DNA of 64,000 nucleotides, from NCBI GenBank assembly GCA_050084515.1, contig CM114271.1, positions 44,578,001 to 44,642,000 on the forward strand, read 5' to 3'. The notes below the pieces were generated by a model that worked only from the letters and a program-made list of their open reading frames with translations, did no database searches and was not told the DNA's origin. This document shows positions 7,616 through 34,896 of this stretch, piece by piece (the stretch's first letter is position 1; every line of letters begins with the position of its first letter). This stretch comes from Blasia pusilla (lineage: Eukaryota). The position numbers and the translations under genes are program-made.

Positions 7616-7717
<102 letters not shown>

Positions 7718-12942: not shown

Positions 12943-13479
12943 TGGAGGAGGCACACGTCCATGATCTTGACAAGTGCAATCGTGTTGATGATGGGCTCCA
13001 CCACATGACCAACAAGTAACAGTAGGCGGCTGCAAGTGAGCCGAATATGAAGGCGCAGGTCTCTATGGCACGGCCTCCCAGTATCCTCCCTGAGCTCGTG
13101 GTGCCACAGTCGACCTATCTCAGAGTCCACGTTGCTGCACATGTAGTGAAGGCAATCGTGATTGCTCTTGCCAAGAACCCGTGGTGGCTACGCTCTCCTC
13201 CGCCATGTTGCGCTCAATGTTCTCGGCGGTCCTAAAAACATCTCTCAACGTAGGGGAGGTGTTCATAAGAAGCACCCCCTCCCGCACTTGTGTCCGTAGG
13301 GTCCGGTCCAGCATCACGTACCATGACTGGATAGCTTGAGCCTCTGTCACCCCCTTAGTGACATTGATCAACCGACACAAGCGAGTGTGAGCCTCATGCA
13401 AACTCTCACCCGGGCGCCTCTGGAAGTCGTGGATGCTCCACAACTTCTCCGTCCGTACCCCCTGGTAGCTCGCCCTCAA
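12943..13479 (-). pseudogene. Gypsy gag fragment, 3' half; target of the 21-kb MULE insertion
   Basis: LRASYQGVRTEKLWSIHDFQRRPGESL... continues directly from ...VEFFAELRA at 34897. It is homologous to the gag at 43140-44117. Confidence 0.85.
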
Positions 13480-14819
13480 GGGGCTGGTATTCTGGCAGGA
13501 GAGAGTAAGAGAGGAGAGGAAGAGAGGAGAGTCTCTCTTAAAAAAAAAGGGCCAAATCCGCCTCCTCTCTTCAAAACTTTTTGACATATTTGAGATTTTT
13601 GTTTGCTTTCAAATTCATGAAATCTTTAGAAGAGAGTAGGTAGTGGTCCACATTTGGCCCTAAAGAAACCTCCTTTTTCCAGGGGGCGAAAAACAAATAG
13701 ACATCATAAGACCACTACAAACATTTTTCCATCACTCTCCATGTGAGCCTAAGTTTTTAAACATTGCTTGTCTTGGTCTACAATAAGCAGTGCCCATGGG
13801 TATTTTTGTTGGAGGACCACCCGGATGCGCATCAGTACGATGCCAACCTCTCTTTTTGCAGGGAGTGTTGCTTGCATCATGGCCTTCCCTGAATTGCCTC
13901 ATAACCAAATTTCTGTTGGTTATGAGTGGTGTATGCTCAAGACCAACTTTGTGAAATGTGAACACATGAGACGATAATTGAACCAAAAGATTGTTAGCTG
14001 TCTGGAGTAAAGAGGAAGTGATGTCGCTTCATTCAGATCCTCCCAACCCGTCGGAATTTTACAGGTTGCAACTCTTGGGGGCCTCCAACTCTTGCAACCC
14101 ATCGAAATTTTATAGGTTGCAACTCTTGCAACCCATCGGAATCAGATGGCTTGCACCCCTTGCAAGAAAGCTCACCATAAGAAAGGAAAGATTTCTCAGT
14201 GTGATTCCCTTCCACCCTGCACCCACGAAAATCCAGCGGGTTGGGAATCTAAAATGGCAATCCGACAGGTAGTAGGAATCCTGCACATCTTAGACAAGAA
14301 AAGAAGCCTACAATTGGTTGACGAATGTAGGGGAACCAAACAAAAGTTAAGAAGCCCGCCACAATGTGTCAGAAGTTGGTCTCACAGGGAAAGAGTCCGA
14401 TCACTCAAGCAACCAACTTGTCGGAATCCGACAACTTGCCTGGAAATGGTTAAAAAGTTGCAGTGGGCAAAAAGGTTGAAGTTGCAACCCGTCGGAATCA
14501 TACGGGTTGCAAAATTGTAATTTTGAGTAGCTAAAAGAACACAATCCATAAGTCCAAAAAAACATTTTCCAGCAAACTTTTACAAACATCATTATCGATT
14601 GAAAAAATCTCGTCCTTTATTACCTCCGAAGGAACCTCGGAAATGTACATTTGACCTAGTCTATGATTACTTCAGCCTCGTCATCTACAAATTTACTCCT
14701 AACTCTCCTAGGTTCCTATACAAAAGGAATGTCCTGGGATACAAGTGGCTCCTCTGGCTGATTGTAGACGGGGATCAAAAATATTGGCGAATTCGAGAGG
14801 CTTGGCCCCCCCCCCTAGG

Positions 14820-17621
14820 TAAGACATTCACTGATTTTGGAGAAGGGTCTTCATCACGGATTTGGGATAGGTCCGGGGTCCCTGAATACCTGGGCGGCGT
14901 AATTTCCTCATCCAAATCAATCACCAGATTTGTCCCTCGATGCTGCCTCTTCACCTGCCTGAAGTCAAGATACTTATCAGGTCTCTATGAGTCTCGCTCG
15001 GACTGCTCTACCACCATATGTATGGGACGTCTTGAAACCCCCCCACAAATATCCCCACCTATGTGTACGTCTTGCTCGAGTGGAGTTCCAGCTACGCACC
15101 GGTTGAAGGCTTCGACATACAATTTTTCATCACCAGATCTCACAGCCGCCCTGACATAGAGCTCGTAGATCGACGGCCCTTTTCCTTTTGTTATGCCTTT
15201 TGTGAGAAAGATATGGGTTGCTGCAGACTATTGCATTGCTCTTGCCTGGTCTTGTTGGCATGCCTCCACAAGTGAAATTCGTTGGCATGCTTGTGACGAC
15301 CTCCAAGAGGAATGAACACTTTCTGCTCCACTTGTGTTGGGGCGAGGAGGGCATTTTCATGAACGTTCAATCCCTGCAATGACGGCAATGTTAGAAGGGA
15401 ACGAAAATAACTCAGGAGTCAAAGAAATAAGCGACCTGTCGGAACCAGACGGGTTGCAGGCCCGAGGCATCCCATGAACGACTCTGCGACCCGTCGGGTC
15501 CCGACGTGTTGTAACCTTAAACCCACCTACTGCAACCCGTCGGAACCGGACGGGTTGTAAGGCCGAGGCATCCCATGAACGACTCTGTGACTCGTCGGGT
15601 CCCGAATGGTTGCACACTCGGGACGACACCAAACATCTGGATGCAACCCGTCGGTTTCCGTTGGGTTGCACCCTGGGGCAACCCGTCGGTTTCCGTCGGA
15701 TTGCACACTCGGGCAACCCGTTGGTTTCCGTCGAGTTGCACACTCGGGCAACGCGTCGCATCCGACAACTTGCTTGGTTTCTTGGGTTTGAAATCCATGT
15801 AATTCCCACGCTTCTCACCCTGAGCTACAACTTTACAAACAATTCTCAGCGTGAGTTTGACAAGACAAAATAGTGAACTCACCTGCCGCATGAAGTTTCC
15901 CCATTGTCTCATACGTACAGTCCACCAACTCAACCAAGAGCACAACTCTTTGTACTTCCCCTCAATCGCATGCTTCCTCTACCACCCATGAAGTTCTTCC
16001 TGGCAGTCCATGGCCTGCTTCAAGGTTTTGCTGTCCTTGCAGCGTTGGAGTAGAGTGACATGCTCTGTCCTCTTATTCTCCTTGATGCAAGATTTTGTGT
16101 ACCGGGTCCTGATCGTTGCCAATGGAAAGCATCCGACCTTTTCCTCTCGGTTGAACCTCTCCACCCTGAACACCTCCGGATAGCAATCCACCCAGGTTGT
16201 GCATTGTCCGCCATGAACCCATAAATTTCCGGAGGTGGCCCTTGTTTTCCTTCACCACCTCCAATAAGAGTAACCAAACACATCTTCAAACTGCCAACGT
16301 CTTCTGCCTTTACTTCACACACAAATATAGTTTTGAGTCCCTTCTCCACATGGTCATAAACGTGAGCACCCATTGTCAACCATCCGTTCAGCAGTTTGTA
16401 GCAAATATCAAAGCTTACCCAGCTCCTGTAAAGATCTTCCCCTTCCCTCATTCGATCTATAAGATCGAGGCCACTCGAGGGACATGTGGTTGACATTTTG
16501 AAGACATAGGCCCTGGATCCCTCGCCTCCTTGGCCCATGAACTGCCATCTCTGAATGAATGGAAATCTGGAGTTGGCCTTGATTCTGGGGATGGCATCCA
16601 TTTCGGCCGTCTTTCCATCCAGAACTTGTATCTGACGCAGCAAATTCCGGAAGCATTCAGGATCAGCGAGAAATGCGAGATTTTCCCTAGAGTTGTTTCT
16701 CCTCAACCGCCGTGATCTCGCCCTGTCCAGGGATTCCAAGAAATTGTTCACAAATTTGTGATGCCGTTGTGAGCTTGATCACCCGGGCTTTGAACCGGAG
16801 AGTTTTCAGAGACTCGACAACTTTCTTCGCCACATCCTCCTTGATGTGTCTCTGAATTGCATCGGTCACAGGATGAGTGTGGGCGCCAACATGGACAGCC
16901 AGCCTTGTATACTCTGACGTGGAGCCCAAGTCGTGGACAATGAAAAATATGTATGCATGACACGCTCCAATGCAGAAGGGCGATGCGACAATGAGGACAT
17001 CGATGGCCTCCGCGATATGGTGGCACCGACCTCGTATGGAGTTTCTGCATTCTTGGGAGGGAATTGCGGACGTATTGACTGCTTTGTTGCGCTCTAGATA
17101 CGGGCATCTTTGGACTTCTACACTCCAAGGCTCCCATGCATTGGCGGCGGGAGACAATCCAAGGACCATCGGGATGGAAGCACCTGGTCCGTTGAAGCTT
17201 TGCACCATCGATGACAATCGGACTTTCTGTCCATACCCTTGGCGTCCTCCATCCTTCTTTTGAGCATGAGCGACAAGTGGAGGCAACTCAAAAATGCAAT
17301 TACCATCGTGATGCGTGGGCGGCTTGTCGACAAGAATGCGCTTGAACATTTTCAGGGCAGAGACGAAAGCAAACTATTGCCCGATACTCGCAAGAGAAGA
17401 GCAGTAGGCGGACACAGGGGCCCGATTGGTGTCGGCAAATCCGAGGTTGATAACATCCGAATCTCTTTAGGAAGAACAACATTATTCGAGTGTGCGAAGT
17501 TGAGTCGGCGGATCTGCAGAGCTTGGAGTTGTAAACGAGAGCTCGGAGCACTAGGAAATTCTAGACCGTCTACTTGGGAAACAGACGATTCAGGGGGGGC
17601 CGTAAACTCTGTATTGACCAT
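14820..17621 (-). pseudogene. MULE transposase of the nested copy (heavily frameshifted, SWIM end missing)
   Basis: WVSFDICYK, FMADNA, DAFHW and PNTSGAESVHSSW on the minus strand. Confidence 0.85.
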
Positions 17622-18984
17622 TTGCTAGAGGTAGGAGATTCCATACTTTACGATGTCCGAGGTCACTTTGGCTGGACCGTCTCACCTATTATGTCTTCCG
17701 TACCTTCCACCTAACATCTTTGGATACAAAGATGGTTCCAATTGAAGAAGAAATCGAGCAGATGTAAAATTTTCATCCTTTGCTCTGAAAGACTCACGAG
17801 CTTGGGGTCGAATGATTTCTTATTGAGGAAGGGCCGCATGGATGAGCGCCACAAGTGATCTTAACATAATTATCCATTCCAAGAAGATTCCTACTGGGAG
17901 GAGCGAGAATGAGAATGAGAATGAGAATATTTAATTTATAGTGAATAGGAAACAGATACTCTCGGTGATTTTTTCTTGACAAGATGAATTCGGTGGGGAC
18001 ATTGCGACACAATGGATCCATTCAGAACACATTCAATTCTATTGCAATATGTTACCGGATTTGGGAAGTAGAGGGTTGCGCATCACTTGGAACCCGTCGA
18101 GTCCTGGTAACTCGAAATTACCGAAGCTTATCAAAGCTGGCAACCCGTCGGCATCGGACGGGTTGCATGCTTCTCGCTAAACATTGTCGAAGTGAGCAAC
18201 CCGTCGCTCTCGAAGCGACTTGCGAGATACCGCTCCTTCTTGCTCAAAGATGCCGGAGGCGTGCAAACCGTCATTTCAGCGAGTTCGCGGGTGCCTCGCC
18301 TTTTAGCCCAAAGACGGCGAGGCGTGCAACCCGTCGCCGTCAACGGGTTGCGCAAAGGGCTCGCCTTGTGGTGCGACCAGCCAGACTCCGGCGACTTGCA
18401 TGGGAAGCCATCGTTCCTAACCCTTGATGAGGGAAGCGTGCAACCCAGCGGTCTCGGCGGATTGCCCAAAATACGCCCCGTTCCGTCCCAAGCAGCGCAA
18501 CATGTCGGTCTCCGGCGGGTTGCGCGGTACCTGCGTTCTTTTCCGAAGGCAGCGGGCGCTCAACTGCCGGTCTCGCGGATTGCTCAGCGCGCGTGGCGGC
18601 GTACCAGGATGGCGGAGCCGCGCAACTGTCGACTCCGGCGGGTTGCGATTTTTCACGCCGGACTTCCGTAACATCCGCACGCGTCGCCGTTGAAAGGACG
18701 AGCGGGACCAACGGTCAGCCCAACGGCTAGAAAAGTATAAATAGGGCAGAAATCGCTCATTTCCGGTTTCTCATTTCGCGATCTTCATTCCTCCTCCTCA
18801 CTCACACTCCCGAAAGCGGTGGTGATCGATCTGAAGGGCATTTCACGCGGCGACACATCGCGAGTCGATAGGAGGGAACGAGAGTGAGCGGTTCGACCGG
18901 CGATATCGGGGCGATTCGAGCTAACCATCAAGGCGAGACGAGCTCCCATCTCGACATCAAGCAAAGCGATCGATCAAGGGTTTC

Positions 18985-21900
18985 GTGGACATAGGTGGAG
19001 GCATTTCGGAAAAATGCGAGGAAAAAAACAAGCCAACAAGTCAGGGAGCTTCACTCCCAAGTCCATTAGGACTCTGCGTCGACTTCTCCAGGCCTCGTTC
19101 GGCGAATGAAATTAGGCAGCAGGAAATCGAGGAGCGGGAAAGGGAAGCGGAGATGCACAACCAAGTGCTTACGGCGAGGCGTGTTCAAGCGGCGCAAGAT
19201 AAACAAAACGAAGAGGCCGAGACGTCGCAGGCCTTGAAGAAAAGGATCGCCGACGAAAAGAGAGAAAAGAAGCGTCTGGACGCGTCGGTGAGGAGGGCAA
19301 AATTGGCTAAAGCGAGGCGGGAAAAAGCGATAGCCATTGACGATAGCCCAGCCCATCCAACCGCAAGTGTTGAGATGCGGGAAATGTCCCCCATGAAGTC
19401 GGGGACACAATCAACATAGTGGAAACAACACCGATTCAAATCGATGACAGCGAGGTCATGAGGACCGCCAGCGTGGAGATGGTGGACATGGCCGAAGAAG
19501 CCGGAGAGCGGTCATTCTCGATTCCAAGCCCGGCGGAGGACATCGACCTCTATCGGATCGATGAGTTCCCAGTCGATTTGCCAGCCCCTGTCTCAGACAA
19601 GTTAGCTGGTCAAGAAACCGACTCCATTGGAGGCACATTTCTGCGTGAAGGCAGTGGTCCTTCATCCATACCCTCATCACATGGCGACGGTGGAGATGGC
19701 AATGCATGCCATGAACACGTGAGTATCTTTAACACTTTCGCAACTCGTCGGACTCGGCGGTTGCTCGATTGATGAATGGGTTAGGTTTGTTTAGGCAGAA
19801 AGCAACTCGTCGGACTCCGACGGGTTGCTAGACTGCACGCTTTTCCGGATGTTTTTTTAAGATTGCAACTCGTCGGACTCTGACGACTTGTTTGATGGAA
19901 CATAGATTTAACTAGTTTTTGGCCCAAAGCAAACCCCGTGAGTCCGATGGGTTGCTCGACAAAGTCCCTTGTGAGGATGTTTTTGAAGTGCAACTCGTCG
20001 GACTCCGGCGAGTTGCAATCTTAAAAAACATCCAAAAACGTCGATCCGCAACCCGTCGGAGTCGGCGAGTTGCTTACCTCGATTAGCAAATCTGAATGCA
20101 AACCGTCGGACTCCACGGGTTGCATCATTTAGCTTGTTGCTAGAATCCGACCCTGGGCGGCGACCCGTCGGAGTCCGGCGGGTTCAGGAACCCATGTAAT
20201 TTCCTGACGGGTTGAGTTTGGATGTGCACGATTGTATCGGAGGGGAATGTCACCCACCATTGGATCGGGCTGCGATCGGGTGAGGAAGGTGCTTACGACG
20301 CACCGGAGAAATCTGAGGGGTTCTTGGCGTGCCCTCGTCAATCAGATGCTTGCAAAGGGTGCTCAGTTAAGAAGAAAACTTGGGCAAACAAGTTTATTTC
20401 TCAAGATCTGCCCGTAACCATCCTTTCTTTGGTCGAAGATCAGGCCGCGAAGAAAAGCGCAGACCGGAGCCGAGCGGATGGAGAAGGTATCTGCGTCTGG
20501 CGCGTAAATTCATCAAGCTGTTGTATCTGCTGCAACGAAATACACTGGCGAGCAAGATGCAGCGATACATCAACATTCTCAACCCCGATCTTGGTGGGAG
20601 TTCTACAAGGAGCTCAAGGCGATTATCAAGCGTCGGCGGAAGAGGGATGAAGATCCGCATGGTCGGATTGGGGAGAAAGTGTCGCTGGATCGCGTGCATC
20701 GTTTTGGCGTTATCCGGGATTAGCGAGTTCAGGAGGATACAAGGCGATGAAAATCAGTCTCGAGGGCTCAGAGGCCGGAAGAGGGCGACACACCATCCCT
20801 GGGTGTGTCCGATCGATGATCTCGCATTGGCTACGCAAATGGTCGTTCGGGACGCGTTGCGGTAATCGGGAAGTCCGTCTTTGGGACGGTGCATAGCGGA
20901 GCTCGAGAAGATTAGAGCCCATTCCGGAAGCAAACCTTGAAAGTTCGGAGATTACGAGGTTTGGCTCGAAGACATCGAGGACAAGCCAACCAAGAACCCC
21001 GGATTCAAGACCATGTTCAAGGTTTGCGTCCTCCTCAGCGAGCTTGACGAAGAAGTAGAGGGTAACAAATGGGATCAGCGAAGAAGAAGCGAGATCTACA
21101 GAGCGGACGGACTGATAATGTTCGACTAAAAGCGCCCAACGGATGGTATTCGGTACCTCGTCTAGTGTAAGAACGCAGTGCGTGGGAAAATTACCGGTAG
21201 CCTTGAAATTGTGGGCCGCGGCCCGGATGCGAGAGACATTCTCCATATCGGACGTGGAGATGGCCACAAGACATGTCGGATTGGGAGGTGGAGAATTGCC
21301 CCATTTGGCTCGACTTCAACGACCTGAAGACATCACGGATAAGGACTTACGAGTGCTTCATGATGCACGATGGCCTCAGGACAAGACGACATCCCCAATT
21401 TCGTCGGCACCAAGACTTCTTCGGAGGAGATGCTGAAGAGCAGCCCACGAGGCAGTTGAGTTGGCTTCCAAGGTCCGGACAGCCAAAGACAAATCCACAG
21501 TGGGTCTCAAAGGCAAGGCGAGGGGAGGGAAAAATTCAGAGGCCGAGACTTCCCAAAGAGAGCTGAAGATGAGAGGCAGAGGCGGAATCGTCCCGGACGA
21601 GCGGGGAGAGAGGGTCGGACAGGTCCTCGGCGAAGAAAACGCCACGAATCCGAGGTCATAGAAACCCGACAAGCCGTCCCAGACTAGGAGAAGCGGAAGC
21701 GAGAGGTGCGGGTTGTCCCAAGGAGAATACAACCCATCATCCTTGGGAAGACACAGGACAAACAACGACCGGACAAGCGTCCTCCTTCAATTCACCTCTT
21801 TCTTTGGATGAGTGAAAGCGACTTTGGTTCTCAGCGTCGACAAGCGCCATCGAAAAATTGACAACGCGGGACGGAAGCTCCAACAAAACGGCACGCTGCC

Positions 21901-23170
21901 TGGGCGGTGAATGGAGTGGTGGAAGAGGTTGTGGTGTATCTCTTGATCGCCGATCTGCCCTCGGGGTTGCGACTTTGGGGCTTAAAATCCGCGGACGAGG
22001 TACATGAGTGGAATGCCGCTCACTTATGACCAGATTGCACTTTTGTTCTCCTTTGCGCGCCTATCTCCCGAGTGTGGGGCTGCTTCTTGGTTGTTGACCG
22101 GAGGGAGCGAGGCGAGCTCTTCAACCTCGGTCGTCAAGAGGTCGCAAAAGTGGAGGACGACACAATCGTGGATCATAAAAAACGAGTACCCACTCCGATC
22201 CGCGACGAGTCAGATTCGGGTAAGGCTCAATTCATGTACAATACTTTCAATTATCTTATAATGATGTGTAGAATGAGAGTCAATCTGGGTTTTTTTTGTC
22301 CGTGAGCAACCCGTCGGAAGGCGACGGGTTGCAAGCTTAGAGCAGCCCATGCTTGGCTGAGAGCAACCCGTCGGTTTCCGACGGGTTGCGCGATTGATTT
22401 TGGTTTTTGGATGCAACCCGTCTAATAGCAACGGGTTGCTATCAGACGGGTTGCTCTCAGGCAAGCATGGGCTGGTCTAGGCCAGCAACCCGTCGCCTTC
22501 CGACGGGTTGCATCCGAAAACCAAAATCAACTTGGAAAACCCAAAAGCAACCGCAACCCGTCGGGTTCCGGCCGGGTTGGTCCGGACAAAACAACCCGTC
22601 GGACTCAAACAAGAGTTGATCCAAAGTCGATTATTGAAAATCTTCTCAAAGCGACTTCTTTAGTTTCGACATTGTTTCGTCTTTGATTCTGGATGGACCA
22701 CTCCTACATGTCTTTGCCGTTCGCCCGAGCACAATTTTCAGGTGTTCAAGATCCAAGATCTTGTGGATCCATGCTTAGATGGGTACAACTTAGATTTTTG
22801 TACAATTCCCGGAATTTACATGCAAGACGATACCGCTTCGGGAGGAAGGAAAAGTCGCCGACCGATGCAACGCTCATCGAGCTGCTCAAGGCCGGGTGAC
22901 TTGGTGTTCGATTTAGTGGGCCTTTCGGGGCGAGTATCGAGGCGCTGGCAAAGTGGCAGGAACATTCTCCGCCTCGAGGAAGGCAGGCTGTTTGACCTTT
23001 GCAAGCGAGGCAAAGGCATAATACAAAAGACTCGTTGGGCGTACAACTCTCCACCGAAGCCGAGCTCGGTTCTAGAGCCACCCTTGGTAGTGACTCCATC
23101 GTCACTTCCAACGATTCCCAAAATCGGAGGGCAAGGCGAAAGTGATTTTGCAAGAGCTCTCGGACGATGA
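18985..23170 (+). pseudogene. Cargo gene of the nested copy: coiled-coil N-terminus, ParB segment deleted, beta-class amino-MTase-like C-terminus
   Basis: LLIADLPSG lies at ~21940-21965. At ~22830-22985 it reads YRFGRKEKSP..MQ.LIELL.RPGDLVFDLVGLSG....SGRNIL.LE across frameshifts. This follows the N6_N4_Mtase pattern KP..L...LI....GD.VLDPF.GSG....GR..IG.E. Confidence 0.7.
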
Positions 23171-25599: not shown

Positions 25600-28500
25600 T
25601 ACCCAAATTTGACTCGTCGCGGATCGAAGTGGGTACTCGTTCTTGATGATCCACGATTGCGCCGTCCTCCACTTCAGCGACCTCTTGACGCACTGGAGGT
25701 TGAAAAGCTTGTCCTCGCTCCCTCGTGTCAAAACTAAGAAGCATCCCCTGTCACTCAGATAAGCGTCTGCAAAGGAAAACAGGAGCGCGATCTGGTCATA
25801 AGAAAGGGGAACATTCCAGTCTAGGACCCCGTCCGACGGATTCTCGTCCCACAATCACAACCCCGAGGGCAAATCAGCGATCAATAGATCCACCGCCACT
25901 TGTTCGACCACTCCATTGACCTTCCAAGGAGCGTGCCCGTTTCGTTGAAGCTTCCGTCCCAGCGTTGTCAATTTATCAATGGCAGGTGTCGACGCTTGAG
26001 AACTGAAACTTTTCAGCTCATCCAGTAAATTTGTGAACTGAAGGAGGACGCTTGTCCGGGTCGTTGTTTCTCTATGTCTTCCCAAGGATGATGGAGTGTA
26101 TTCTCCTTGGGACAACCCTGGCGCCTCTCGCTTCCGCTTCTCTCGAGTCTGCGGTCGGCTTGTCGGGGTCTCTATGACCTCAGACTCTAGTGGGGTTTTT
26201 TTTGCGGAGGACCTGGTCCGACCCTCTCTCCCCGCTTGCCCGGATGATTCCGGCTCTAGCCTTGAATCTTCAGCCTCTCTGTGGGAAGACTCGGCCTCGG
26301 AATTCTTCGCTCCCCTCGCCTTGCCTTTGAGACCCGCTGTGGATTTGTCTTTGGCTATGTGGACCTTGGAAGCAACTCCGTTGTCTCGAGGGCTTGCTCT
26401 TCCACATCTCCTTTGAAAAAGTCTTCAGGTTGCACAAAATTGGGGATGTCGTCCCGTCTTGCGGCCACTGCATCATGAAGCACGTGTAAATCTTTCTCGG
26501 TAATGTCCTCAGGGTCGTTGAAGTCCAGCCAAATCGGGCAATTCTCCACCTCCCAATCGGACATGCGCCGAGCCATCTCCGTGTCGTACATGGAGAATGT
26601 CTCTCCATCGGGCGGAGAAGCCCACAATTTGCAGGCTGCCAGTATTTTTTCCCAAGTACCTGCATTCTTACAATGGGCGAGGTACCTGAACACCATCCGT
26701 TGGGCAGCTCTTAGTCGAACTGAATCGGCCGCCTGCTCCTGAAGATCTCGCTTCTTCTTTGCGAGATCCCTTTTGTTCCCCTCGATTTCTTCGCCAAGGT
26801 CTGCCTGAGGGAGGATGCAATCCTTGAACATCGTCTTGAAACCTGGGTTTTTGATGGGCTTGTCCCGGATGTCATCGAGCCAAAGTTCGAAATCTACAGC
26901 ACTTTCTAGGTTTGCTTCATCGGGAATGGGCTATATTCTTTTGAGTTCCACTTGGAGACCGTCCAGTATGGACTTCCCAAGAAGCCACAACGCGTCCCAG
27001 AACGACCATTCGCGGAGCGAGTGGGAGATCACTTGATCAGAGACACCCAGAGGATGGTGTGCCGCCCTCTTTTGGGCCTCGGTTCCCTCGAGACTCATTT
27101 TCATCAGTCGAATTCTCCTAAATTCGCTTATTCCAGACAACGCAAATCAATGCACGCGATCGAGAGACACTTTCTCCCCAATCCAACCTTGCGGATCTTC
27201 ATCCCTTTTCCGTTGGCACTTGATAATCGCCTTCAGCTCCTTGTAAAACTCCGGACCAAGGTCGGGGTTGAGAATGGCGATGTAGCGCTGCATCTTGCTT
27301 GCCGTGTACTTCGTAGGTGCAGATACTGCAACTTGGATGAATTTTGCATGCTCAGACACAGATACTTTCTCCCTCCGCTCCAACTCCAATGCAGCGCTCT
27401 TCTTCGCGGCCTATATCTTCAACCAGCAAAGGATTGTGACGGCTGCATCTTGGGAAATAAACTTATTTGCCCAAGTCTTCTTTTTGATTTGTGCACCCTT
27501 TGCCAAAGATTCGATTTACGGGCGTCGCCAAAAACCCTTGTACTCTGCCAAAGTGCGTCGTAAGCACTTTCTTCACCCGATCGCAATCCTGGATCCAGTG
27601 GTGGGTGACATTCCCCTCCGATACAATCCTGCACATCCAAACTCAATATAAGAAATTTTGTAAGGTACATGGGTTCCTGCAACCCGTCGGACTCCGACAG
27701 GTCGTCATAGCTCAAGGTCGGATTCTAGCAACGAGCTAAATTATGCAACCCATCGGAGTCCAACGGATTGCATTCAGATTCATGATTGCCTGGTTTCAAC
27801 CCGTCGGACTCCGACGGATTGTCAGATAGTCCATATCAAAAGTGAACATAGCAACCCGTCAGAGTCCGACAGGTTGCGCAATTGCAATGAAAGCTGCAAT
27901 TTAACGCGAAAAATGTAGCTTCCAACTTCCGAATGCAACTTGTCGGACTAAGACGAGTTGCTTTCGCCCAAAAACATCAAAAAACCTCCAAAAATAGCTT
28001 CGAGTCAAGCAACCCGTCGGACTCCACGAGTTGCTTTGGGCCAAAATCATACTAAACCTATGGTCAGTCGAATAACTCGTCGGAGTCCGATGAGTTGCTT
28101 TCTTCAAAAAACATTCAAAAAATGCGGCGAGTCGAGCAACTCGTCAGACTCCGACGAGTTGCTTTCTTCAAAATACATCCAAAGAATGCGGCCTATCGAG
28201 CAATTTGTCGGACTCCGACGAGTTGCTTTGGGCCAAAAACATACTAAACCTGTGGTCAGTCGAACAACTCATTGGACTGCAATGAGTTGCTTTCGGCCAA
28301 AAACATCCTAACCCATTCATCAATCGAGCAACTCGTCGGAGTTCAAAGAGTTTTGTTTGGCCAAAAACATCCCAAAAATAGTGGCGACTCAAACAACTTG
28401 TTGGAGTCCGACGGTTTGCAGCAAGAAGAAACTTACCTGTTCATGGCATGCATGGCCATCTCCACGGTCACCATGTAATGAGGGTATGGATGAAGGACCA

Positions 28501-29660
28501 CTGCCTTCACGCAAAAATGTGCCTCTAAGGACTTTGGGTGCTCCTATGCAAACTTTGTCCACGCCATGAACATGTGATTTCCATCCCAGATGAAGAAATG
28601 CAGATTCCTCATCGAGCTGAATTCCGTCCCCTCTACTTGCCTTCTGAATTCCTGATCTCTCATTCTCCAGAATGTGTCGAGCTTTTCCAAGTCCTCCTCT
28701 GTAACCAGCGCTTGGGTTCTATGGTCATCGTAAGGCTGAACATAGAACGGAGGGAAGCTGTCGACGTAGGATGCTGTAGCCGCCGATTGTTTGAGCTTTG
28801 CAATATCCTCGTCAGACTGAATTTCGCGGACGTACTCCATTGTCCGCAATCGGCAGAGTGGAATTCTCGAGGCGTTGTGGCCCTCCATCAGTGCCATCTG
28901 CTTTACCACTTGTCACAACCGGGACAAGATCAATAAGCTACACTGAATTGCCAATGAATTGCAAGATGGGCCTTCACATAATTCAAAAAACTCAGATCCT
29001 CTCTTACCCGCTCGAAGATTGGGTCGGTTTCTTGACCAGCCAACTGCTTTGAGACAGCAGCTGGCAAGTCCACTGGAAACTCGTCGATGTGATAGAGGTC
29101 GATTTCTTCCGCCGGGCTTGGAGACGAGGATGACCGCTCTCCTACTTCTTTAGCAATGTCCACCATCTCCACGCTGGCGGTCCTCATGACCTCATCGTTC
29201 GTGATTTGAACTACGGCCGTTTCCGCTATATTGCTTGTGTCCCCGGACTTCATCAGGGATATTTCCCGCATCTCAACACGTTCGGTTGGACGGGCAGGGC
29301 TGTCGTCAATGGCTGTTGTTTTTTTCCTCGCTTTAGCCAATTCTGCTCTCCTCACCGATGCGTCCAGACGCTTCTTTTCTCGCTTTTCGTCGGCGACTCT
29401 TTTCTTCAAGGCCTGCGACATCTCAGCCTCTGCGTCGCATTTTATCGAGCGCCTCTTGTACACGTTTCGCAAGAAGCTCCTGGTTATGCATCTCCGCTTC
29501 CCTTTCCCGCTCCTTGATTTCTTGCTGCCTTATCTCATTTGCCGAACGAGGCCCTGGAGATGGTGACGCAGGATTCCTAATGGACTTGGGAGTGAATTTC
29601 CCAGACTTATTTTCTTGAGCTTTTTTCCTCATTATTTTTCCCGGAAATTCCTCCACCCAT
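25600..29660 (-). pseudogene. Cargo gene of the outer copy: coiled coil + ParB/Srx-like domain + amino-MTase motif IV exon (last exon deleted)
   Basis: IPLCRL...VREI...DIAKLK...FFIWDGNHMFMAW (28571-28597) matches the ParB DGxxR box with R replaced by M. VAVDLLIADLPSG lies at ~25860-25900. A palindrome-rich intron spans ~27680-28435. Confidence 0.68.
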
Positions 29661-29987
29661 GTCCACGATGAATCGCATGATCAGTCGCCTTGCAGATGTC
29701 GAGATGAGTCGCCTTGATGGGTAGCTCGAATTGTCTCGCGATCGTTCGGTCGAACAATCTCGCGATCGTTCGGTCGTATCGTCTCGCGATGACTCGCCGT
29801 GTGAAGCGCCCCTTGGTATGTGATCAGCTGAAGTGCGGGAGAGCAATAGAGATCGCAAAATGGGAAACTAGAAATGAGCAATTTCTCCCCTATTTGTACT
29901 TTTCTAGCCGTTGGGCTGACCGTTGGGTCGCGTCGTCCTTCCGACGGCGACGTGCCGGCCGTTACGGAAGTCTGGACGTGAAAAATG

Positions 29988-30670
29988 GCAACCCGTCGGA
30001 GTCCGACAGGTTGCGCGCCTCCGCCGTCGTGGGACAATAACGCGAGGTGCGCGAGCAACCCGTCGGAGACCGACAGGTTGAGCGCCTCCGCCGTCTTCGG
30101 AGAAGAACGCGAGGTAACCCGCCCAACCCGTCGTAGACCGACAGGTTGCGCGCCTCCGCCGTCTTTGGACAAGAACGGGACGTACCCGCGCAACCCGTCG
30201 GAGACCGTTGGGTTGCACGCTTCCCTCGTCAAGGGTTAACAACGCGGGCTTCCTGCGCAACTCGTCGGAGGCCGACAGGTTGCACGCTTCCTTCATGTAA
30301 GCGAAACAAGGCGAGGCCCTTGCGCAACCCGTCGGAGGGCGACGGGTTGCACGCCTCGCCGTCTTTGGGCAAGAAGGTGCGGCACCCACGGAACTCGTCG
30401 AGAACAAACGGTTTGCATGCTTCCTTCATGTAAGTGTTACACCGTGAGATAATTGGGCAACCCGTCTGATGCCGACGGGTTGCAAGCCTCCGCCATCTTC
30501 GGGCAAGAAGGCGCGGTATTCAAGCAACTCGTCCGAGAGTGACGGGTTGCCAGCTTTGATCATGTTTGCGTTTCAAGGTAAGGCAGAAGCGTGCAACCCA
30601 TCCGAAGCCTACGGGTTGTAGGCTTTGCTCAGCTTGGGTTAAAAGTTGAGTTACCAGGACTCCGACGGGT
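29988..30670. repeat. Tandem ~67-bp units, each containing the palindrome GCAACCCGTCGG-N3-CCGACGGGTTGC
   Basis: Units start at ~29988, 30054, 30122, 30189, 30256 and 30324. They lie between the two divergent genes, with an equivalent array at ~18080-18650. Confidence 0.9.
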
Positions 30671-30899
30671 TCCAACAAAATGAAGTGTGCTTCGCAACCC
30701 ACGTCTCTACTTCCCAAATCCTGTAACAGATTGCAACAGAATTGAATCGGTTCCAACAGAATTGAATCCATTGTTTCAGAAAATTTCACCTACCAAACTT
30801 CATCTTGTTAGTAAAATTCTGTCAGAAGTATCTGATTTCCTATTCACTATAAATTAAAAATTCTCATTCTCATTCTCACTCTCCTCCCGTACAAAATTC

Positions 30900-33800
30900 C
30901 TAGTGCTCCGAGATCTATTTTTGCAACTCCTAGCTCAGTAGATCCGGCTTCGACTCCAACTTCACACGCTCATAACAATGATGTTCTTCTTGCAGAGATT
31001 CCGAATGTTATCAACCTCAGTGGATCTGTCGGACACCAAGCGGGCCCTTTGTCCGCCTACTCGTTCCTCTTGCGAGTATCAGGAAATAGTTTGCTTTCAT
31101 CTCTGGCCTTGAAAATGTTCGAGCACATTCTTGTCGACGAGCAGCCGCCCACATACGATGGCAATTGCATTTTTGAGTTGCCTCCACTTGCTGCTCCTGC
31201 TCAAAAGAAAGATGGAGGACGCCTGAAGGGTATGGACAGAAAGTTTGATTGTCATCGATGGTGTAGGCTTCAACGGACTAGTGCTTCAATTCCAGATGGT
31301 CCTTGGATTGTCTCCCGCCGCCAATGCATTGGAGCCTTGGAGTGTAGAAGTCCAGCATGCCCGTATCTAGAGCGCAACAGGCGAGTCAATACGTCCCAAT
31401 TCCCCCCCAAAAATGCAGAAACTCCATACGAGATCGGTGCCACCATACCGCCGGGAGGCCATCGATGTCCTCATTGTCGCATCGCTTCTTTCGTTGGAGC
31501 GTGTCTGCATTCATATTTTTCATTGTCCACGACTTGGGCTCCACGTCGAGTACACAAGTCTGGCGTTCATGTTGGCTCCCACACTCATCCCGGACCGATG
31601 CAATTCTGGACACATCAAGGAGGATGTGGCCAAGAAAGTTGCCGAGGTCTCTGAAACTCTCCGGGTTCAAAGCCCGGAGTGATCAAACTCACAACGGCAT
31701 CACAAATTTGTGAACAATTGCTTGGAATCCCTGGACAAGGCGAGATCACACGCCGAGGAGAAACAATCGCGGGGAAAATCTCGCCTTTCTCGCTGATCCT
31801 GAATGCTTCCAGAATTTTCTGCGTCAAATACGGGTTCTGGATGGAAAGACGGACGAAATGGATGCCATCGCCAGAATCAAGGCCAACTCCAGATTTCCAT
31901 TCATTCAGAGATGGCAGTTCATGGGCCAAGGAGGCGAGGGATCCAGGGCCTATGTCTTTAAAATGTCAACCACAGGTCCGTCGAGAGGCCTCGATATTAT
32001 AGATCGAATGAGGGAAGGGAAAGATCTTTACGGCAGCTGGGTAAGCTTTGATATTTGCTACAAACTGCTGAACGGATGGTTGACAATGGGTGCTCACGTT
32101 TATCACCATGTGGACAAGGGACTCAAAACTATATTTTTCTGTGAAGTAAAGGCAGAAGACGTTGGCAGTTTGAAGATGTGCTGGTTACTCTTATTGGAGG
32201 TGGTGAAGGAAAACAAAAGGCCACCTCCGGAAATTTATGGGTTCATGGCGGACAATGCACAACCTGGGTGGATTACTATCCGGGAAGTGTTATGGGGTGG
32301 AGAGGTTCAACCGGAGAGGGAAAGGTCGGATGCTTTCCATTGGCAACAGTATGTGACCCGCTACACCAAATCTTGCATCAAAGAGAATAAGAGGACAGAG
32401 CATGTCACTCTACTCCAACGCTGCAAGGACAACAAAACCTTGAAGCAGGCCATGGAATGCCAGGAAGAACTTCATGGGTGGTGGAGGAAGCATGCGATTG
32501 AGGGGAAGTACAAAGAGTTGTGCTCTTGGTTGAGTTGGTGGACTATACGTATGATACAATGGGGAAACTTCATGCGGCAGTTGAGTTCACTATTTTGTCT
32601 TGTCAAGCTCACGCTGAGAATTGTTTGTAAAGTTGCAGCTCAAGTTGAGAAGCGTGGGAACTATAGGGATTTCAAACCAAAGAAACCAAGGAAGCTCGGG
32701 CAACCCGTCGGATGCGACGAGTTGCATCCAGAATTTTGGTGCAACCCGTAGACAAGTATGCAAGTCACATGTATAGAAGGCCTGCAAATAGTTCGACCCG
32801 GATGGCTTTCGGATGACTTGCACTTGGATGACTTGATCTTGCAACGCGTCTGAATCTGACGGGTTGCAGTAGGTGGGTTTAGGGTTGCAACACGTCGGGA
32901 CCCGACGGGTCGCAGAGTCGTTCATGGGATGCCTCGGCCTTGCAACCTGTCTGGTTCTGAGAGGTAGCTTATTTCTTTGACTCCCGAGTTATTTTTGTTC
33001 CCTTCTAACATTGCCGTCGTTGCAGGGATTGAACATTCATAAAAATGCCCTGAAGATAGTGTTCATTCCTCTTGGAGGTCGTCACAAGCATGCCAACGAA
33101 TTTCACTTGTGGAGGCATGCCAACAAGACCAGGCAAGAGCAATGCTACAGTCTCCAGCATCTCATATCTTCCTCACAAAAGGCATAACAAAAGGAAGGGG
33201 GCCGTCGATGTACGAGCTCTATGTTAGGGCGGCTGTGAGATCTGGTGATGAAAAACTACATGTGGAAGCCTTCAACCGGTGCGTAGCTGGAACTCCCCTC
33301 GAGCAAGACGTACACATTGGTGGGGATATTCATGGGCGCGTTTCAAGAGGTCCCATATAGATGGTAGTAGAGCCGTCCGAGCGAGACTCATGGAGACCTG
33401 ATAAGTATCTTGACTTCACGCAGGTGAAGAGGCAGCATCGAGGGACAAATCCGGTGATTGATTTGGATGAGGAAATTACGCCGCCCTGGTATTCAGGGAC
33501 CCCGGACCTATCCCAAATCCGTGATGAAGACCCTTCTACAAAATCAGTGAATGTCTTATTTCTAAAGCCCTCCGTTGTTGGAAGTTCACAACATTCTGTC
33601 ACTGGGGTGGTTCAACAATATGGGATTCCGTTAATGGAGGTGGATTGCAACCTAAAACGGTGGCATATATCTCGGAGCAACCCAGGACACGGACCCACAT
33701 GTAGGGCACGATCTGATCGCATTAGGGGAGCATGCGGCACTTTCCTAAATAAGAACTGTACAAGGACTGGACGACCACTGCCTGGGTTTTGGGGACTCAA

Positions 33801-34508
33801 AACCTTTGATCGTTTCACGAGGATCGGGGATCAATTGAAGTACTTCTTATGCCCAAATGAATCTTGCGCTTTCCGAAAGTCTTATCCGGCTGCCATTGGA
33901 GCTCCGGGGAATATCCCCATGATTTGGCCCATCGCCGTAGGTACGAACTGCACTCAAGACAAAGTGGACAATCTTACAAGTGCCGGTTTCAGACTCGTAG
34001 ACGGGGGAAGTTTGGAGCATGTTTGCGCTACAGAGTCCTTTACATTTCGTATTCAACCCAAGATTGATATCAACATTACCCGGAGAAGGTGGATGATCTC
34101 AATCCACTATTTCTGTTTGAGTCTAGAAATGGGGTGAAGAGAAACAGAATGTGTAGGCCAACGGTGGAGAGAGCAAAGCGAATTGCATCAGTTCGGGAGG
34201 CAAAAATGGAGATCATCGCCATGAAAGATGTCCTGAGTGGCAATGGAATAGGAAGGATGTATTGGGTCAGGAACAACATTGTAAATTCAAGGGTCACAGG
34301 GGTATATGTGGTGCACATCTGTTGCTTTCCCACATGTTCATGTGATGACTTTGTCCAAAGAGAGACAAGTGGCAAAAGTTATTTCCCTTGTAAGCACATG
34401 TACTATGTGTTGCTGGTAGTTTTAAGAGAGTCGGAGGTAGGAGTAGGAATCCACCAACCAATTTTTTCCCTCAAAGAAGTGCGAAGTATTTTAAACAAAC
34501 CACTTTGA
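30900..34508 (+). pseudogene. MULE transposase of the outer copy (best preserved): GCM-like, MULE DDE, SWIM
   Basis: The 297-aa ORF at 31858-32751 has D1, D2 and DAFHW. SWIM CFPTCSCDDF..FPCKH lies in 34089-34508. The intron donor is mutated (CAG|TTGAGT at 32581), and frameshifts are present. Confidence 0.88.
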
Positions 34509-34896
34509 GGATGCAAAATGAGGTTTTAGATTGTACTTTCATTTTTCAAGAAACTTCACTTTTAGCTTGAACTCTATTCAGCCCAGGGCAAATGGTAGAT
34601 TGTTTCCAGACCTTGGATGGAAAAAGTGATTGGTTCCACACTTCTGATTCCACTGATTTTTCAGTTTTGTATATTTTGTGCAATTTGCAACCGGTCGGAC
34701 TCAGATGGGTTGCCAAAATATGGAAGAGAAAAAAAGAAGTGTGGGATTGCTTAATAACTGAGCAAAAAAGTGCAAAAAAATTCACACAAAAAGTTTCCTC
34801 TCTTCAACCCAACGGAAACTCTCTTAAAAAAATTTTATCTATTTCGGTTGAAGGTAGTTTCCTCTCTCCTCTCTTCCTCTCCTCTTACCGCACCTC

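What the first reader, a model, noticed from the sequence alone, without database searches (positions are those of the whole stretch)
13480..34896. Mutator-like transposon carrying a ParB-like + beta-class amino (N4C/N6A) DNA methyltransferase cargo gene
Seen: an ~11-kb element with 11-bp TSDs encodes a MULE transposase and a divergent, intron-containing second gene. Pieced together from three copies, that gene reads coiled coil, then FFIWDGNH(M) (28571-28597), then VDLLIADLP(S/L)G, then RKEKSP..LIELL.RPGDLVFD...SG...GRNIL.LE (22830-22985). Established: catalytic motif IV before SAM-binding motif I is the beta arrangement of the N6_N4_Mtase family. ParB-MTase fusions occur in phages and prokaryotic mobile elements. 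Bacterial-derived N4C methyltransferases have been reported in bdelloid rotifers and Marchantia. Arabidopsis VANDAL MULEs carry accessory anti-silencing genes. Inference: this element may mark or protect its own DNA with a non-5mC modification, and could be a mobile reservoir for plant amino-MTases. Caveat: motif IV lacks the aromatic residue of D/S-P-P-Y and motif I is degenerate here, so it may be a catalytically dead DNA-binding derivative.
Basis: partly seen in the sequence, partly recalled or inferred. Interest (0 to 1): 0.9.

Follow-up and report, generated by a model that had tools for sequence, protein, structure and literature searches.

The report
Plant transposon with degenerate methylase-like gene
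Nested, decayed copies of a very abundant Mutator-type DNA transposon carry a second gene that ends in a far-diverged relative of bacterial DNA amino-methyltransferases lacking the usual catalytic motif; its proposed ParB domain could not be confirmed.

Summary
13480-34896 is an ~11.3-kb element with an exact 11-bp target-site duplication, and a second ~10.2-kb copy is nested inside it. A third, internally deleted copy lies at 1013-12914. All the quoted peptide motifs are at the stated places.

The methyltransferase (MTase) reading is supported in part. The motif-IV exon belongs to a family with no Pfam hit in any member scanned; two members are named, both from Riccia liverworts. Its profile matches a beta-class N6_N4 MTase reference (hhalign Prob 91.8, score 47.8; 100 shuffles max 18.1) but not an MT-A70 reference. 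In a ~32%-identical metagenomic relative, three successive ORFs tile that reference as IV-VIII, X-I, then the motif-II region. Joined, they give E 6e-13 and Prob 97.1. So the two MTase halves are exons of one gene in the beta order.

Motif IV is D-[LIV]-P-x-[GHEN] in 12 of 12 family members, never (D/S)PP(Y/F/W). Motif I is also degenerate. A pseudo-enzyme or altered enzyme is therefore more likely than a canonical N6A/N4C MTase.

The ParB reading is not supported. Pfam, three ParB profiles and AlphaFold gave nothing; only a language-model lead remains.

All three copies here are pseudogenes. The elements also hold 54 copies of a 25-bp palindrome, a candidate binding site. I class this as a new variant of a known kind (transposon-borne MTase-like accessory genes).

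The parts
13469..13479 (.). Left copy of the 11-bp target-site duplication CTCGCCCTCAA of the outer element
   Evidence: The word occurs only twice in the window, here and at 34897. It abuts the terminus GGGGCTGGTATTCTGG, which is shared with two other copies.
34897..34907 (.). Right copy of the 11-bp target-site duplication
13480..14821 (+). Outer element, left terminal region 'R' (part 1), interrupted by the nested copy
   Evidence: Matches 39085-40320 at 91% and, inverted, 24974-23817. The junction was read.
24983..34896 (+). Outer element, remainder: rest of R (with a deletion), gene 2 on the minus strand, transposase on the plus strand, and the short right end ...CTCTTACCGCACCTC
14822..24974 (-). 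Nested second copy. Its transposase is on the minus strand and truncated at the left end; gene 2 is on the plus strand; a full R end lies inverted at the right. It is flanked by CCTAGGTA (14814-14821 and 24975-24982).
1013..12914 (+). Third copy. Most of gene 2 is deleted, a foreign ~7.3-kb insertion sits at 4405-11687, and the right end matches that of the outer element.
30836..34508 (+). Transposase gene of the outer copy. Several ORFs; the catalytic core is 31714-32751 (GFMAD ... SDAFHW) and the SWIM finger is in 34068-34508.
28547..28912 (-). Gene 2 exon with FFIWDGNHMFMAW, the proposed ParB-like part (outer copy only). Its identity is not established.
26355..27443 (-). Gene 2 middle domain (..ILNPDLGPEF.., ..CPIWLDF..), shared with the Riccia proteins
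   Evidence: tblastn of P0007 residues 30-314 hits 27299-26385 at E 2e-19.
25603..25926 (-). Gene 2 MTase-like N-half (motifs IV to VIII) of the outer copy, with one in-frame stop after VDLLIADLPSGL
1048..1374 (-). Intact MTase-like N-half exon of the third copy, used as the query. It ends at a GTAAGG donor site.
21907..22228 (+). MTase-like N-half of the nested copy (frameshifted)
22843..22981 (+). MTase-like C-half (motif X, motif I, motif-II region) of the nested copy. A frameshift lies between LIELLK and PGDLVFD. This is the only copy of this exon in the window.
   Evidence: Whole-genome reads show that the exon is common in the family.
22307..22578 (.). One of about nine clusters of the 25-bp palindrome CAACCCGTCGG-N3-CCGACGGGTTG. 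This one lies in the intron between the two MTase-like exons. Other clusters: 3441-3711, 15432-15738, 18141-18522, 19803-20185, 25295-25544, 27680-28418, 29989-30618, 32842-32912.
39085..41050 (+). Separate copy of the R terminal region, belonging to a further element

Best explanation
The region holds two nested, dead copies of an abundant ~11-kb Mutator-superfamily DNA transposon, and a third copy lies upstream. The host is a land-plant-like genome; the nearest named relatives of gene 2 are in Riccia liverworts.

Each element has two divergently oriented genes:
- a DDE transposase with a C-terminal SWIM finger;
- a multi-exon accessory gene of roughly 900 aa or more.

SHOWN.
- The 3' exons of the accessory gene encode a far-diverged, circularly permuted (beta-order: IV-VIII, then X-I-II) relative of N6_N4 DNA amino-methyltransferases.
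- In this family the catalytic tetrapeptide is D-[LIV]-P-x-[GHEN] instead of (D/S)PP(Y/F/W), and motif I is degenerate.

INFERRED.
- The domain is most likely a pseudo-enzyme, or at least not a canonical N6A/N4C MTase. It would be kept as a DNA- or SAM-binding module of a transposon accessory factor, acting in cis on the element.
- The 25-bp palindromes that occur in arrays only inside the elements are its likely binding sites.
- The function would be to help transposition or to shield the element from silencing.

The N-terminal 'ParB-like' exon remains of unknown fold.
For: STRUCTURE. The 11-bp target-site duplication occurs only twice in 64 kb. The nesting and the three copies were read.

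MTase HOMOLOGY OF THE WINDOW'S OWN EXON.
- I built a beta-MTase reference profile (HMM) from 44 IMG/VR relatives of YhdJ. I chose 45 of the 74 loci and dropped 1 for internal stops.
- Against all 2038 six-frame ORFs of the window, the best ORF is the motif-IV exon: 8.5 bits, HMM positions 37-126, colinear.
- 0 of 1000 shuffles reach its 9.2 bits.

A REAL PROTEIN FAMILY.
- An exhaustive HMMER search gave 9 proteins at E<=1e-3. Eight look real; the ninth is a Calx-beta repeat protein. Two are named: Riccia sorocarpa KAL3687003.1 and Riccia fluitans KAL2653794.1.
- The two Riccia proteins also share the middle domain of gene 2; both Riccia predictions run on a few residues past the same exon end, (S/H)(A/R)(T/A)(K/T/S)Q(F/I)(K/R).

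PROFILE COMPARISONS (hhalign).
- Family profile against the N6_N4 reference: Prob 91.8, E 7e-7, score 47.8 over 89 columns. 100 column shuffles gave a maximum of 18.1.
- Family profile against the MT-A70 reference: Prob 0.6, score 15.8.
- Control, N6_N4 against MT-A70: Prob 96.6, score 70.4.

THE TWO HALVES ARE ONE GENE.
- In metagenome locus L083, three successive same-strand ORFs match HMM positions 43-116, 199-228 and 229-253.
- Joined in silico they give 35.0 bits, E 5.9e-13 (for a single sequence), and hhalign Prob 97.1, score 72.8 over 197 columns. 60 shuffles gave a maximum of 24.8.

MOTIF IV. It is D-x-P with no second proline and no aromatic residue in 11 of 11 rows of alignment A1 and in L083.

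SUPPORTING LEADS. The ESM Atlas places the exon near amino-MTase clusters. The top VIA match is Trm14, Z 5.0 (weak).

PALINDROMES. 88 half-sites against 0.79 expected, and 54 full 25-mers against 0 in 50 shuffles. All lie inside element copies.

TRANSCRIPTION. RNA reads from related copies lie mainly in the orientation expected for sense transcripts. For the outer transposase this holds in 17 of 18 bin-by-run cells. For gene 2 of the outer copy it holds in 10 of 12 (this assumes the first mate is antisense).

PRECEDENTS. DIRS1 carries an inactive MTase domain (PMC4738411, passages). Red-algal Plavaka and Mutator elements carry N6A-MTase and ParB accessory genes, with inverted-repeat arrays next to the ParB gene (bioRxiv 10.1101/2025.02.11.637652, section 8).
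Against: - No exon or family member reaches any Pfam family at the thresholds used (E<=10 for the window exons, E<=1 for the family proteins).
- PDB sequence and profile searches found no MTase.
- Foldseek on the pLDDT-62.7 half-domain model gave nothing at E<=1e-3, and the VIA Z of 5.0 is tied with unrelated small alpha/beta folds.
- The C-half is seen only once in the window, needs a frameshift, and scores only 1.5 bits (2 of 1000 shuffles reach it).
- Its direct similarity to the L083 C-half is not significant: 269, 48 and 1204 of 2000 shuffles reach the three scores.
- No splice junction from RNA was seen.
- Loss of catalysis is inferred from motifs only. An invariant P and near-invariant W-N (P-x-W-N) 15-17 residues after D-x-P could supply the missing aromatic residue, and the motif-II glutamate is kept.
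- Binding of the protein to the palindromes is pure inference.
- Whether the Riccia homologues sit in transposons is unknown.
Confidence: 0.55

Rival explanations
1. One reading: gene 2 is an active ParB-MTase fusion of phage or prokaryotic type. It puts 6mA or 4mC on the element's own DNA to mark or protect it.
For: - Beta-class MTase homology.
- The motif-II glutamate, one motif-I glycine and an invariant P-x-W-N are retained.
- The ESM Atlas lists DUF6551, ParB_N and DUF3723 clusters for the upstream exon.
- ParB fold fusions to N6_N4 MTases are common in phages (PMC12704722, passages), and I found ParB-MT-A70 fusions in 6 of 23 bacterial MT-A70 loci.
- Palindrome arrays resemble parS sites.
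Against: - Motif IV lacks P-P-aromatic in 12 of 12 members.
- The ParB assignment failed every alignment-based test.
- The copy here has DGNHM, without the arginine of the ParB G-x-x-R motif.
- No methylation data were available.
Confidence: 0.17
2. Gene 2 is a captured host gene, carried Pack-MULE-like, with no role in the element's life. The Riccia homologues would be the host versions.
For: The two named homologues are ordinary 'hypothetical proteins' in Riccia genome annotations, each a single-member cluster. I could not see their surroundings.
Against: - The gene is present in all three copies.
- Whole-genome reads cover it about as deeply as the transposase, which implies hundreds to thousands of copies.
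- Motif residues are conserved at about 32% identity across members.
- It sits in a fixed divergent arrangement with the transposase.
Confidence: 0.15
3. The MTase likeness is a chance pattern in decayed transposon sequence.
For: No Pfam or PDB hit. Fold searches were inconclusive.
Against: - Best of 2038 ORFs, with 0 of 1000 shuffles reaching its score.
- hhalign score 47.8 against a shuffle maximum of 18.1.
- In an independent relative, three ORFs tile the profile in order with E 6e-13.
Confidence: 0.04

Closest known systems
Beta-class N6_N4 DNA methyltransferases (Pfam PF01555; e.g. E. coli YhdJ and phage relatives)
   Same: Profile-level homology over motifs IV-VIII and over X-I and the motif-II region, and the same permuted order.
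   Different: No Pfam hit. Motif IV is D-[LIV]-P-x-[GHEN], not (D/S)PP(Y/F). Motif I is degenerate. Almost no target-recognition segment lies between motifs VIII and X in the window's family. The gene is eukaryotic, has several exons and is carried by a transposon.
Phage and prokaryote ParB-fold + MTase fusions (PMC12704722; ParB-MT-A70 fusions found here)
   Different: The ParB module could not be shown here. About 400 aa of other sequence separates the candidate exon from the MTase-like domain.
Accessory genes PAG2 (N6A-MTase + SET) and PAG3 (ParB + 2OG oxygenase) of red-algal Plavaka and Mutator transposons (bioRxiv 10.1101/2025.02.11.637652, section 8 read)
   Same: Large DNA transposons carrying MTase-type accessory genes, with arrays of inverted repeats inside the element.
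   Different: A different lineage (land-plant-like). One gene, with no SET or oxygenase domain detected. Homology to the PAG genes was not testable because I had no sequences.
Inactive MTase domain of DIRS1 retrotransposons (PMC4738411, passages)
   Same: A transposon-borne amino-MTase domain with substituted catalytic residues, proposed to act by binding only.
   Different: DIRS1 is a retrotransposon, and its domain is of the M.EcoKI/TaqI-like group derived from PCIF1, not beta-class.
Arabidopsis VANDAL (non-TIR MULE) anti-silencing gene VANC (recalled; mentioned)
   Same: A Mutator-type element with weak terminal inverted repeats and an extra gene thought to act on the element's own DNA.
   Different: No sequence relation was tested. 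VANC is not an MTase-like protein (recalled).

Membership tests
N6_N4 (beta-class) DNA amino-methyltransferases | Sequence or profile homology to the Rossmann MTase core | tested here: met
   hhalign Prob 91.8, score 47.8, against a shuffle maximum of 18.1. L083 joined: 35.0 bits, Prob 97.1. The reference was my own, built from 44 YhdJ relatives, not Pfam's model.
N6_N4 (beta-class) DNA amino-methyltransferases | Permuted order: motifs IV-VIII before X, I, II | tested here: met
   In L083, ORFs 213-587, 701-985 and 934-1293 map to HMM positions 43-116, 199-228 and 229-253. In the nested copy, the motif-IV exon (to 22228) precedes the motif X/I exon (22843-22981) on the same strand.
N6_N4 (beta-class) DNA amino-methyltransferases | Catalytic motif IV (D/S)-P-P-(Y/F/W) | tested here: not met
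   D-[LIV]-P-[LTKNE]-[GHEN] in 11 of 11 rows of A1, and DIPEG in L083.
N6_N4 (beta-class) DNA amino-methyltransferases | SAM-binding motif I, D-P-F-x-G-S-G-T-T | tested here: not met
   FDLVGLSGRVS in the window and LDCTAATG/SS in L083. The aspartate and one glycine are kept; the rest is not.
N6_N4 (beta-class) DNA amino-methyltransferases | Reaches the Pfam PF01555 gathering score | tested here: not met
   No hit on single exons (E<=10) or on family proteins (E<=1). Spliced proteins could not be submitted.
N6_N4 (beta-class) DNA amino-methyltransferases | Methyl transfer to DNA | not testable with these tools
   Needs an enzyme assay or long-read methylation calls.
MT-A70 family | Profile homology | tested here: not met
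   Prob 0.6, score 15.8 for the family N-half; Prob 8.8 for L083 joined. The reference had low diversity (23 loci, effective number of sequences 1.09).
ParB/Srx N-terminal domain | Sequence or profile homology (PF02195 or relatives) | tested here: not met
   No Pfam hit at E<=10. A YbdM-type HMM, a broad ParB_N set and a set with ParB-MTase fusion N-termini gave hhalign scores of 15.4-17.5, Prob below 1, in three different registers; in the one shuffle-controlled run (score 16.1) the shuffle maximum was 16.9.
ParB/Srx N-terminal domain | Conserved arginine of the G-x-x-R (P-motif) box | tested here: not met
   The single copy reads DGNHMFMAW. It is a decayed copy, so this carries little weight.
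ParB/Srx N-terminal domain | Fold | tested here: inconclusive
   The single-sequence AlphaFold model has pLDDT 37.2. The ESM Atlas lists DUF6551 at 0.92, a cluster with ParB_N in 11% of members at 0.92, and DUF3723 at 0.89, with only 121-138 shared features.
Mutator superfamily (MULE) transposons | Target-site duplication of 8-11 bp | tested here: met
   11 bp for the outer copy; CCTAGGTA (8 bp, up to 11 given the ambiguous C-run) for the nested copy.
Mutator superfamily (MULE) transposons | Transposase related to IS256/MuDR DDE transposases | tested here: inconclusive
   No Pfam MULE or Transposase_mut hit. hhalign of the five-row family alignment against 18 IS256 transposases scored 30.5-32.4 (Prob 11-14) over the second-D/CxxH region. 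60 shuffles gave a maximum of 21.8. GFMAD and (C/D)xxHW are conserved. That (C/D)xxH is a Mutator signature is recalled, not tested.
Mutator superfamily (MULE) transposons | C-terminal SWIM/CCHC zinc finger | tested here: inconclusive
   SWIM at E 0.007, 16.3 bits, below the 19.6 cut-off. The pattern CSC..(15)..CKH is visible in 34068-34508.
Mutator superfamily (MULE) transposons | Long terminal inverted repeats | tested here: not met
   The ends of the outer copy share only a 22-bp AG-rich inverted word, 30 bp and 11 bp in from the termini. This resembles non-TIR MULEs (recalled).

The most novel reading that the evidence does not exclude
A land-plant transposon family encodes its own parS-like system. 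An accessory protein with a ParB-type loader and a rewired amino-MTase domain recognises the 25-bp palindrome arrays scattered through the element. (In the rewired domain, D-x-P plus a displaced P-x-W-N would replace DPPY.) The protein then methylates or clamps the element's DNA, giving the transposon a private non-5mC mark or shield against host silencing.
Probability: 0.1. Interest if true: 0.85.

Novelty: new variant of a known kind. Interest (0 to 1): 0.5.

Why it matters
Transposon-borne chromatin and DNA-modification genes are how mobile elements fight silencing. Cases are known in red algae, fungi, dinoflagellates, charophytes and Arabidopsis VANDALs.

This case adds a family with no Pfam hit in any member scanned. 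It is an MTase-derived accessory protein in a bryophyte-like land-plant lineage, carried by a family of hundreds to thousands of copies, together with a candidate cis-acting palindrome.

- If the protein is a pseudo-enzyme, it is a second example, after DIRS1, of a transposon keeping a dead MTase as a binding module.
- If it is active, land plants would have a transposon-encoded amino-MTase. The review read here (PMC4738411, passages) says land plants hold few N6A-MTases.

The same window also holds an LTR retrotransposon with a C5-DNMT domain, so this genome may be rich in methylase-carrying elements.

Tried and rejected
PFAM. Pfam on 10+6+5 ORFs or read-throughs of both genes gave nothing but a sub-threshold SWIM hit and noise.

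PDB SEQUENCE SEARCHES. phmmer of both exons and an HMM of the family found no MTase or ParB.

WORD-INDEXED PROTEIN SEARCH. The motif-IV ORF, searched with 'longer' and 'near' lengths, found no hit.

OTHER LIBRARIES. PHROGs and NCBIfam gave only E 0.1-0.3 hits. For the L083 C-half the sole hit in each library was a 'DNA methyltransferase'.

STRUCTURE.
- AlphaFold of the ParB-like exon alone gave pLDDT 37 and is unusable.
- Foldseek against the PDB with the N-half model gave no match at E<=1e-3.
- VIA wide gave a best Z of 5.0 (Trm14), tied with unrelated folds.

ParB REFERENCES. No signal from any of them.

PAIRWISE C-HALF. The nested copy's C-half against the L083 C-half was not significant.

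RNA. No RNA holder was listed. After laying three RNA runs, none of the 15 joints shown (of 431) was an RNA splice joint over gene 2. The splice pattern stays open.

OTHER.
- No whole genome is held for this window.
- L083's record cannot be searched with Pfam models.
- The earlier-findings index had nothing by place, sequence or words.
- I looked for annotated ParB-MTase fusions among phage and plasmid MTase hits. None was named as such, and the two I scanned had no ParB domain.
- I first thought the Riccia fluitans N-terminus matched the ParB-like exon. tblastn places it in the middle-domain exon instead, so I rejected that idea.

Full report
ANATOMY. A self-comparison of the window and reading of the junctions show that 13480-34896 is two elements, one inside the other.

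The outer element runs 13480-14821 and 24983-34896, about 11.3 kb. It starts with GGGGCTGGTATTCTGG. The same terminus opens two other copies of the ~2-kb terminal region 'R': the inverted one ending at 24974 and a separate one at 39085. The outer element ends ...CTCTTACCGCACCTC. It is flanked by CTCGCCCTCAA at 13469-13479 and 34897-34907, and that word occurs nowhere else in the 64 kb.

The inner element (14822-24974) is inserted in R and flanked by CCTAGGTA. Its far end is a full inverted R. Its near end is cut inside the transposase gene.

A third copy (1013-4405 plus 11687-12914) has lost nearly all of gene 2 and carries a 7.3-kb foreign insertion.

The two ends of the outer copy share only a 22-bp AG-rich inverted word, so the long inverted repeats typical of MuDR are absent.

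Whole-genome reads of the same coded organism pile up to 90-603 per orientation column after reading about 1% of a 139-Gb run. Most are 90-95% identical. This is an old family of very many copies.

TRANSPOSASE. No ORF hits Pfam MULE or Transposase_mut models. The only hit is SWIM, below threshold (E 0.007), with a visible CSC...CKH pattern. Three database homologues exist, and none has a Pfam hit. The five-row alignment conserves W.FD, GFMAD and R.(C/D)xxHW. Against 18 bacterial IS256-family transposases the family profile scores 30.5-32.4 in hhalign over the second-aspartate/CxxH region, while 60 column shuffles reach at most 21.8. Together with the 11-bp duplication, this makes 'Mutator superfamily, non-TIR type' the best label. 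It is not a proven one.

GENE 2, THE MOTIFS.
- The FFIWDGNHM exon exists only in the outer copy. The inner copy has a deletion there, and whole-genome reads that run off the inner copy at 19628 continue with the outer-copy sequence.
- The motif-IV exon is intact only in the third copy (ORF 985-1611). The outer copy has an in-frame stop, and the inner copy has frameshifts.
- The motif X/I exon exists only in the inner copy. It needs a frameshift between LIELLK and PGDLVFD, and the outer copy has lost it through a ~0.9-kb deletion.

All three copies are pseudogenes.

GENE 2, IS IT AN MTase? Direct library searches fail. I therefore built a beta-class reference from phage relatives of E. coli YhdJ. 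I used 45 of the 74 loci found, leaving out near-duplicates and partial matches, and dropped one more for internal stops. Several long members were confirmed as PF01555 by Pfam.

Searched without filters against all 2038 six-frame ORFs of the window, the top ORF is the motif-IV exon. It aligns colinearly to HMM positions 37-126 (8.5 bits), and 0 of 1000 shuffles reach its score. The C-half scores only 1.5 bits (2 of 1000 shuffles), though at the right place (HMM 209-224).

The exhaustive HMMER search of 1.84 billion representatives with the exon gave 9 proteins at E<=1e-3. One is a Calx-beta repeat protein and I set it aside. The other eight form a family. Two are named, both as hypothetical proteins, from Riccia sorocarpa and Riccia fluitans. 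The two Riccia proteins also cover the middle domain of gene 2 (tblastn E 2e-19); both Riccia predictions run on a few residues past the same exon end.

The family profile matches the N6_N4 reference in hhalign: Prob 91.8, E 7e-7, score 47.8 over 89 columns. 100 column shuffles give mean 12.1 and maximum 18.1, and the reversed profile scores 18.4. It does not match an MT-A70 reference (score 15.8), although the two references match each other (score 70.4).

GENE 2, ARE THE TWO HALVES ONE GENE? A JGI metagenome contig (L083, 1518 bp) encodes a relative about 32% identical to the window's exon. On one strand it has three successive ORFs.
- 213-587 holds the D-I-P-E-G exon.
- 701-985 ends ..PREKSVLLMQMLIEACSSPWDIILDCTAATG.
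- 934-1293 holds GSSIHACRNVHRHIVALEADVDIF.

They hit the reference at HMM positions 43-116, 199-228 and 229-253, so they tile it in order. Joined inside a script, they give 35.0 bits (E 5.9e-13 for one sequence) and hhalign Prob 97.1, score 72.8 over 197 columns. 60 shuffles reach at most 24.8, and the MT-A70 reference gives Prob 8.8.

This is comparative evidence that motifs IV-VIII and motifs X-I-II belong to one gene in the beta order. RNA evidence is lacking. Three RNA runs gave only 427-603 reads on 20 kb, mostly from other copies, and no splice joint over gene 2 appeared among the joints shown. The orientation of those reads fits sense transcription of both genes, if the first mate is antisense.

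GENE 2, IS IT AN ENZYME? In all 11 rows of the family alignment, and in L083, motif IV reads D-[LIV]-P-x-[GHEN], with no second proline and no aromatic residue. Motif I keeps its aspartate and one glycine only. The motif-II glutamate is kept. A P (invariant) and W-N (in at least 90% of rows), 15-17 residues after D-x-P, form a P-x-W-N of unknown meaning. Because these non-canonical residues are themselves conserved at about 32% identity, the domain is under selection but probably not as a standard N6A/N4C MTase. The precedent read here is DIRS1, whose MTase domain is judged inactive and a mere binding module (PMC4738411). The half-domain AlphaFold model (pLDDT 62.7) did not settle anything.

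THE ParB CLAIM. The exon has no Pfam hit at E<=10 and no PDB hit. I tested three references:
- 76 YbdM-type proteins;
- a broad set of 15 genomic ParB_N matches plus 4 YbdM-type proteins;
- the same set plus six N-termini of bacterial ParB-MT-A70 fusions that I found on the way.

hhalign scores were 15.4-17.5, with Prob below 1, in three mutually inconsistent registers. Shuffled exons, tested only against the third (largest) reference where the real exon scored 16.1, score up to 16.9. AlphaFold without an alignment gave pLDDT 37. Only the ESM Atlas lists ParB-related clusters, with low shared-feature counts. No further copy or homologue of this exon was available, so power was low. The claim is unconfirmed rather than disproved.

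PALINDROMES. The 11-mer CAACCCGTCGG (up to 1 mismatch) occurs 88 times against 0.79 expected. The 25-bp palindrome CAACCCGTCGG-N3-CCGACGGGTTG (up to 4 substitutions) occurs 54 times against 0 in 50 shuffles. All lie inside element copies, in arrays with spacings of roughly 35-140 bp (about 67 bp in the most regular array). The arrays sit between the two genes, in gene 2 introns (including the one between the MTase-like exons) and in the transposase region. The red-algal preprint describes arrays of inverted repeats next to a ParB-type accessory gene of Plavaka elements and proposes self-binding. The parallel is suggestive and untested.

PRIOR ART AND NOVELTY. A full-text search for ParB + methyltransferase + Mutator-like + transposon found 1 paper, the Bostrychia preprint. 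Its sections 8 and 21 report N6A-MTase+SET and ParB+2OG accessory genes in red-algal Plavaka and Chondrus Mutator elements. Passages of Iyer et al. 2016 state that land plants show few N6A-MTases. Passages of a 2025 PNAS survey report ParB fold fusions to N6_N4 MTases in phages. The Marchantia N4C enzymes are described as clustering with prokaryotic N4C MTases (passages). I could not compare them with this family.

I found nothing in these searches on a land-plant transposon with such a gene. I therefore rate it a new variant of a known kind: real and moderately interesting, but dead in this window, with unknown function and an unconfirmed ParB half.

Noticed in passing
window 47414-57095 (LTRs 47414-47781 and 56728-57095; DNMT-like ORF 51742-52497, minus strand): An LTR retrotransposon whose LTRs are 97.6% alike. 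Read on the minus strand, it carries RT/RNase H (PF17919 at E 1e-23) and, upstream of them, a C5 cytosine DNA methyltransferase domain (PF00145, E 2.3e-8, 34.3 bits, above the cut-off). Motifs FGG, PCQ and ENV are visible. DNMT capture by retrotransposons is reported for dinoflagellates and charophytes (PMC5890265; search listing and start of abstract only).
   Followed up: partly
window 3441-3711, 15432-15738, 18141-18522, 19803-20185, 22307-22578, 25295-25544, 27680-28418, 29989-30618, 32842-32912: Arrays of a 25-bp palindrome (CAACCCGTCGG-N3-CCGACGGGTTG). There are 54 copies, all inside copies of the element, at spacings of roughly 35-140 bp (about 67 bp in the most regular array). They could be protein-binding sites or hairpin-forming repeats.
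   Followed up: partly
window 14820-17560 vs 33558-30894, and 17900-22237 vs 30887-25585: The nested and outer copies are about 90% identical over the transposase half but only 76-81% over the gene 2 half. The family may be a mosaic of subfamilies, or gene 2 may evolve faster.
   Followed up: no
window 14814-14830: The nested copy keeps a target-site duplication although its left end is truncated inside the transposase gene. This fits a deletion starting exactly at the terminus after insertion (abortive excision or repair).
   Followed up: no
window 28816-28859: In all three RNA runs, 32-49 reads match only this 44-bp piece inside the ParB-like exon and carry unrelated sequence on both sides. 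An expressed transcript elsewhere shares a short stretch with the exon.
   Followed up: no
window 4824-6247: A tandem repeat of about 348 bp (4 or more units, 78-88% alike) inside the foreign insertion that splits the third copy.
   Followed up: no
window 35875-38833 and 44529-46187: Another dispersed repeat family (75-83% identity), unrelated to the element. The stretch 42001-44000 has an unusually high GC skew (0.32).
   Followed up: no
loci L270, L271, L272, L274, L276, L277: Bacterial ORFs of 392-444 aa that combine an N-terminal ParB_N-like domain with a C-terminal MT-A70 domain. They are 6 of the 23 MT-A70 loci returned from a sample of 201 genomes of one phylum.
   Followed up: partly
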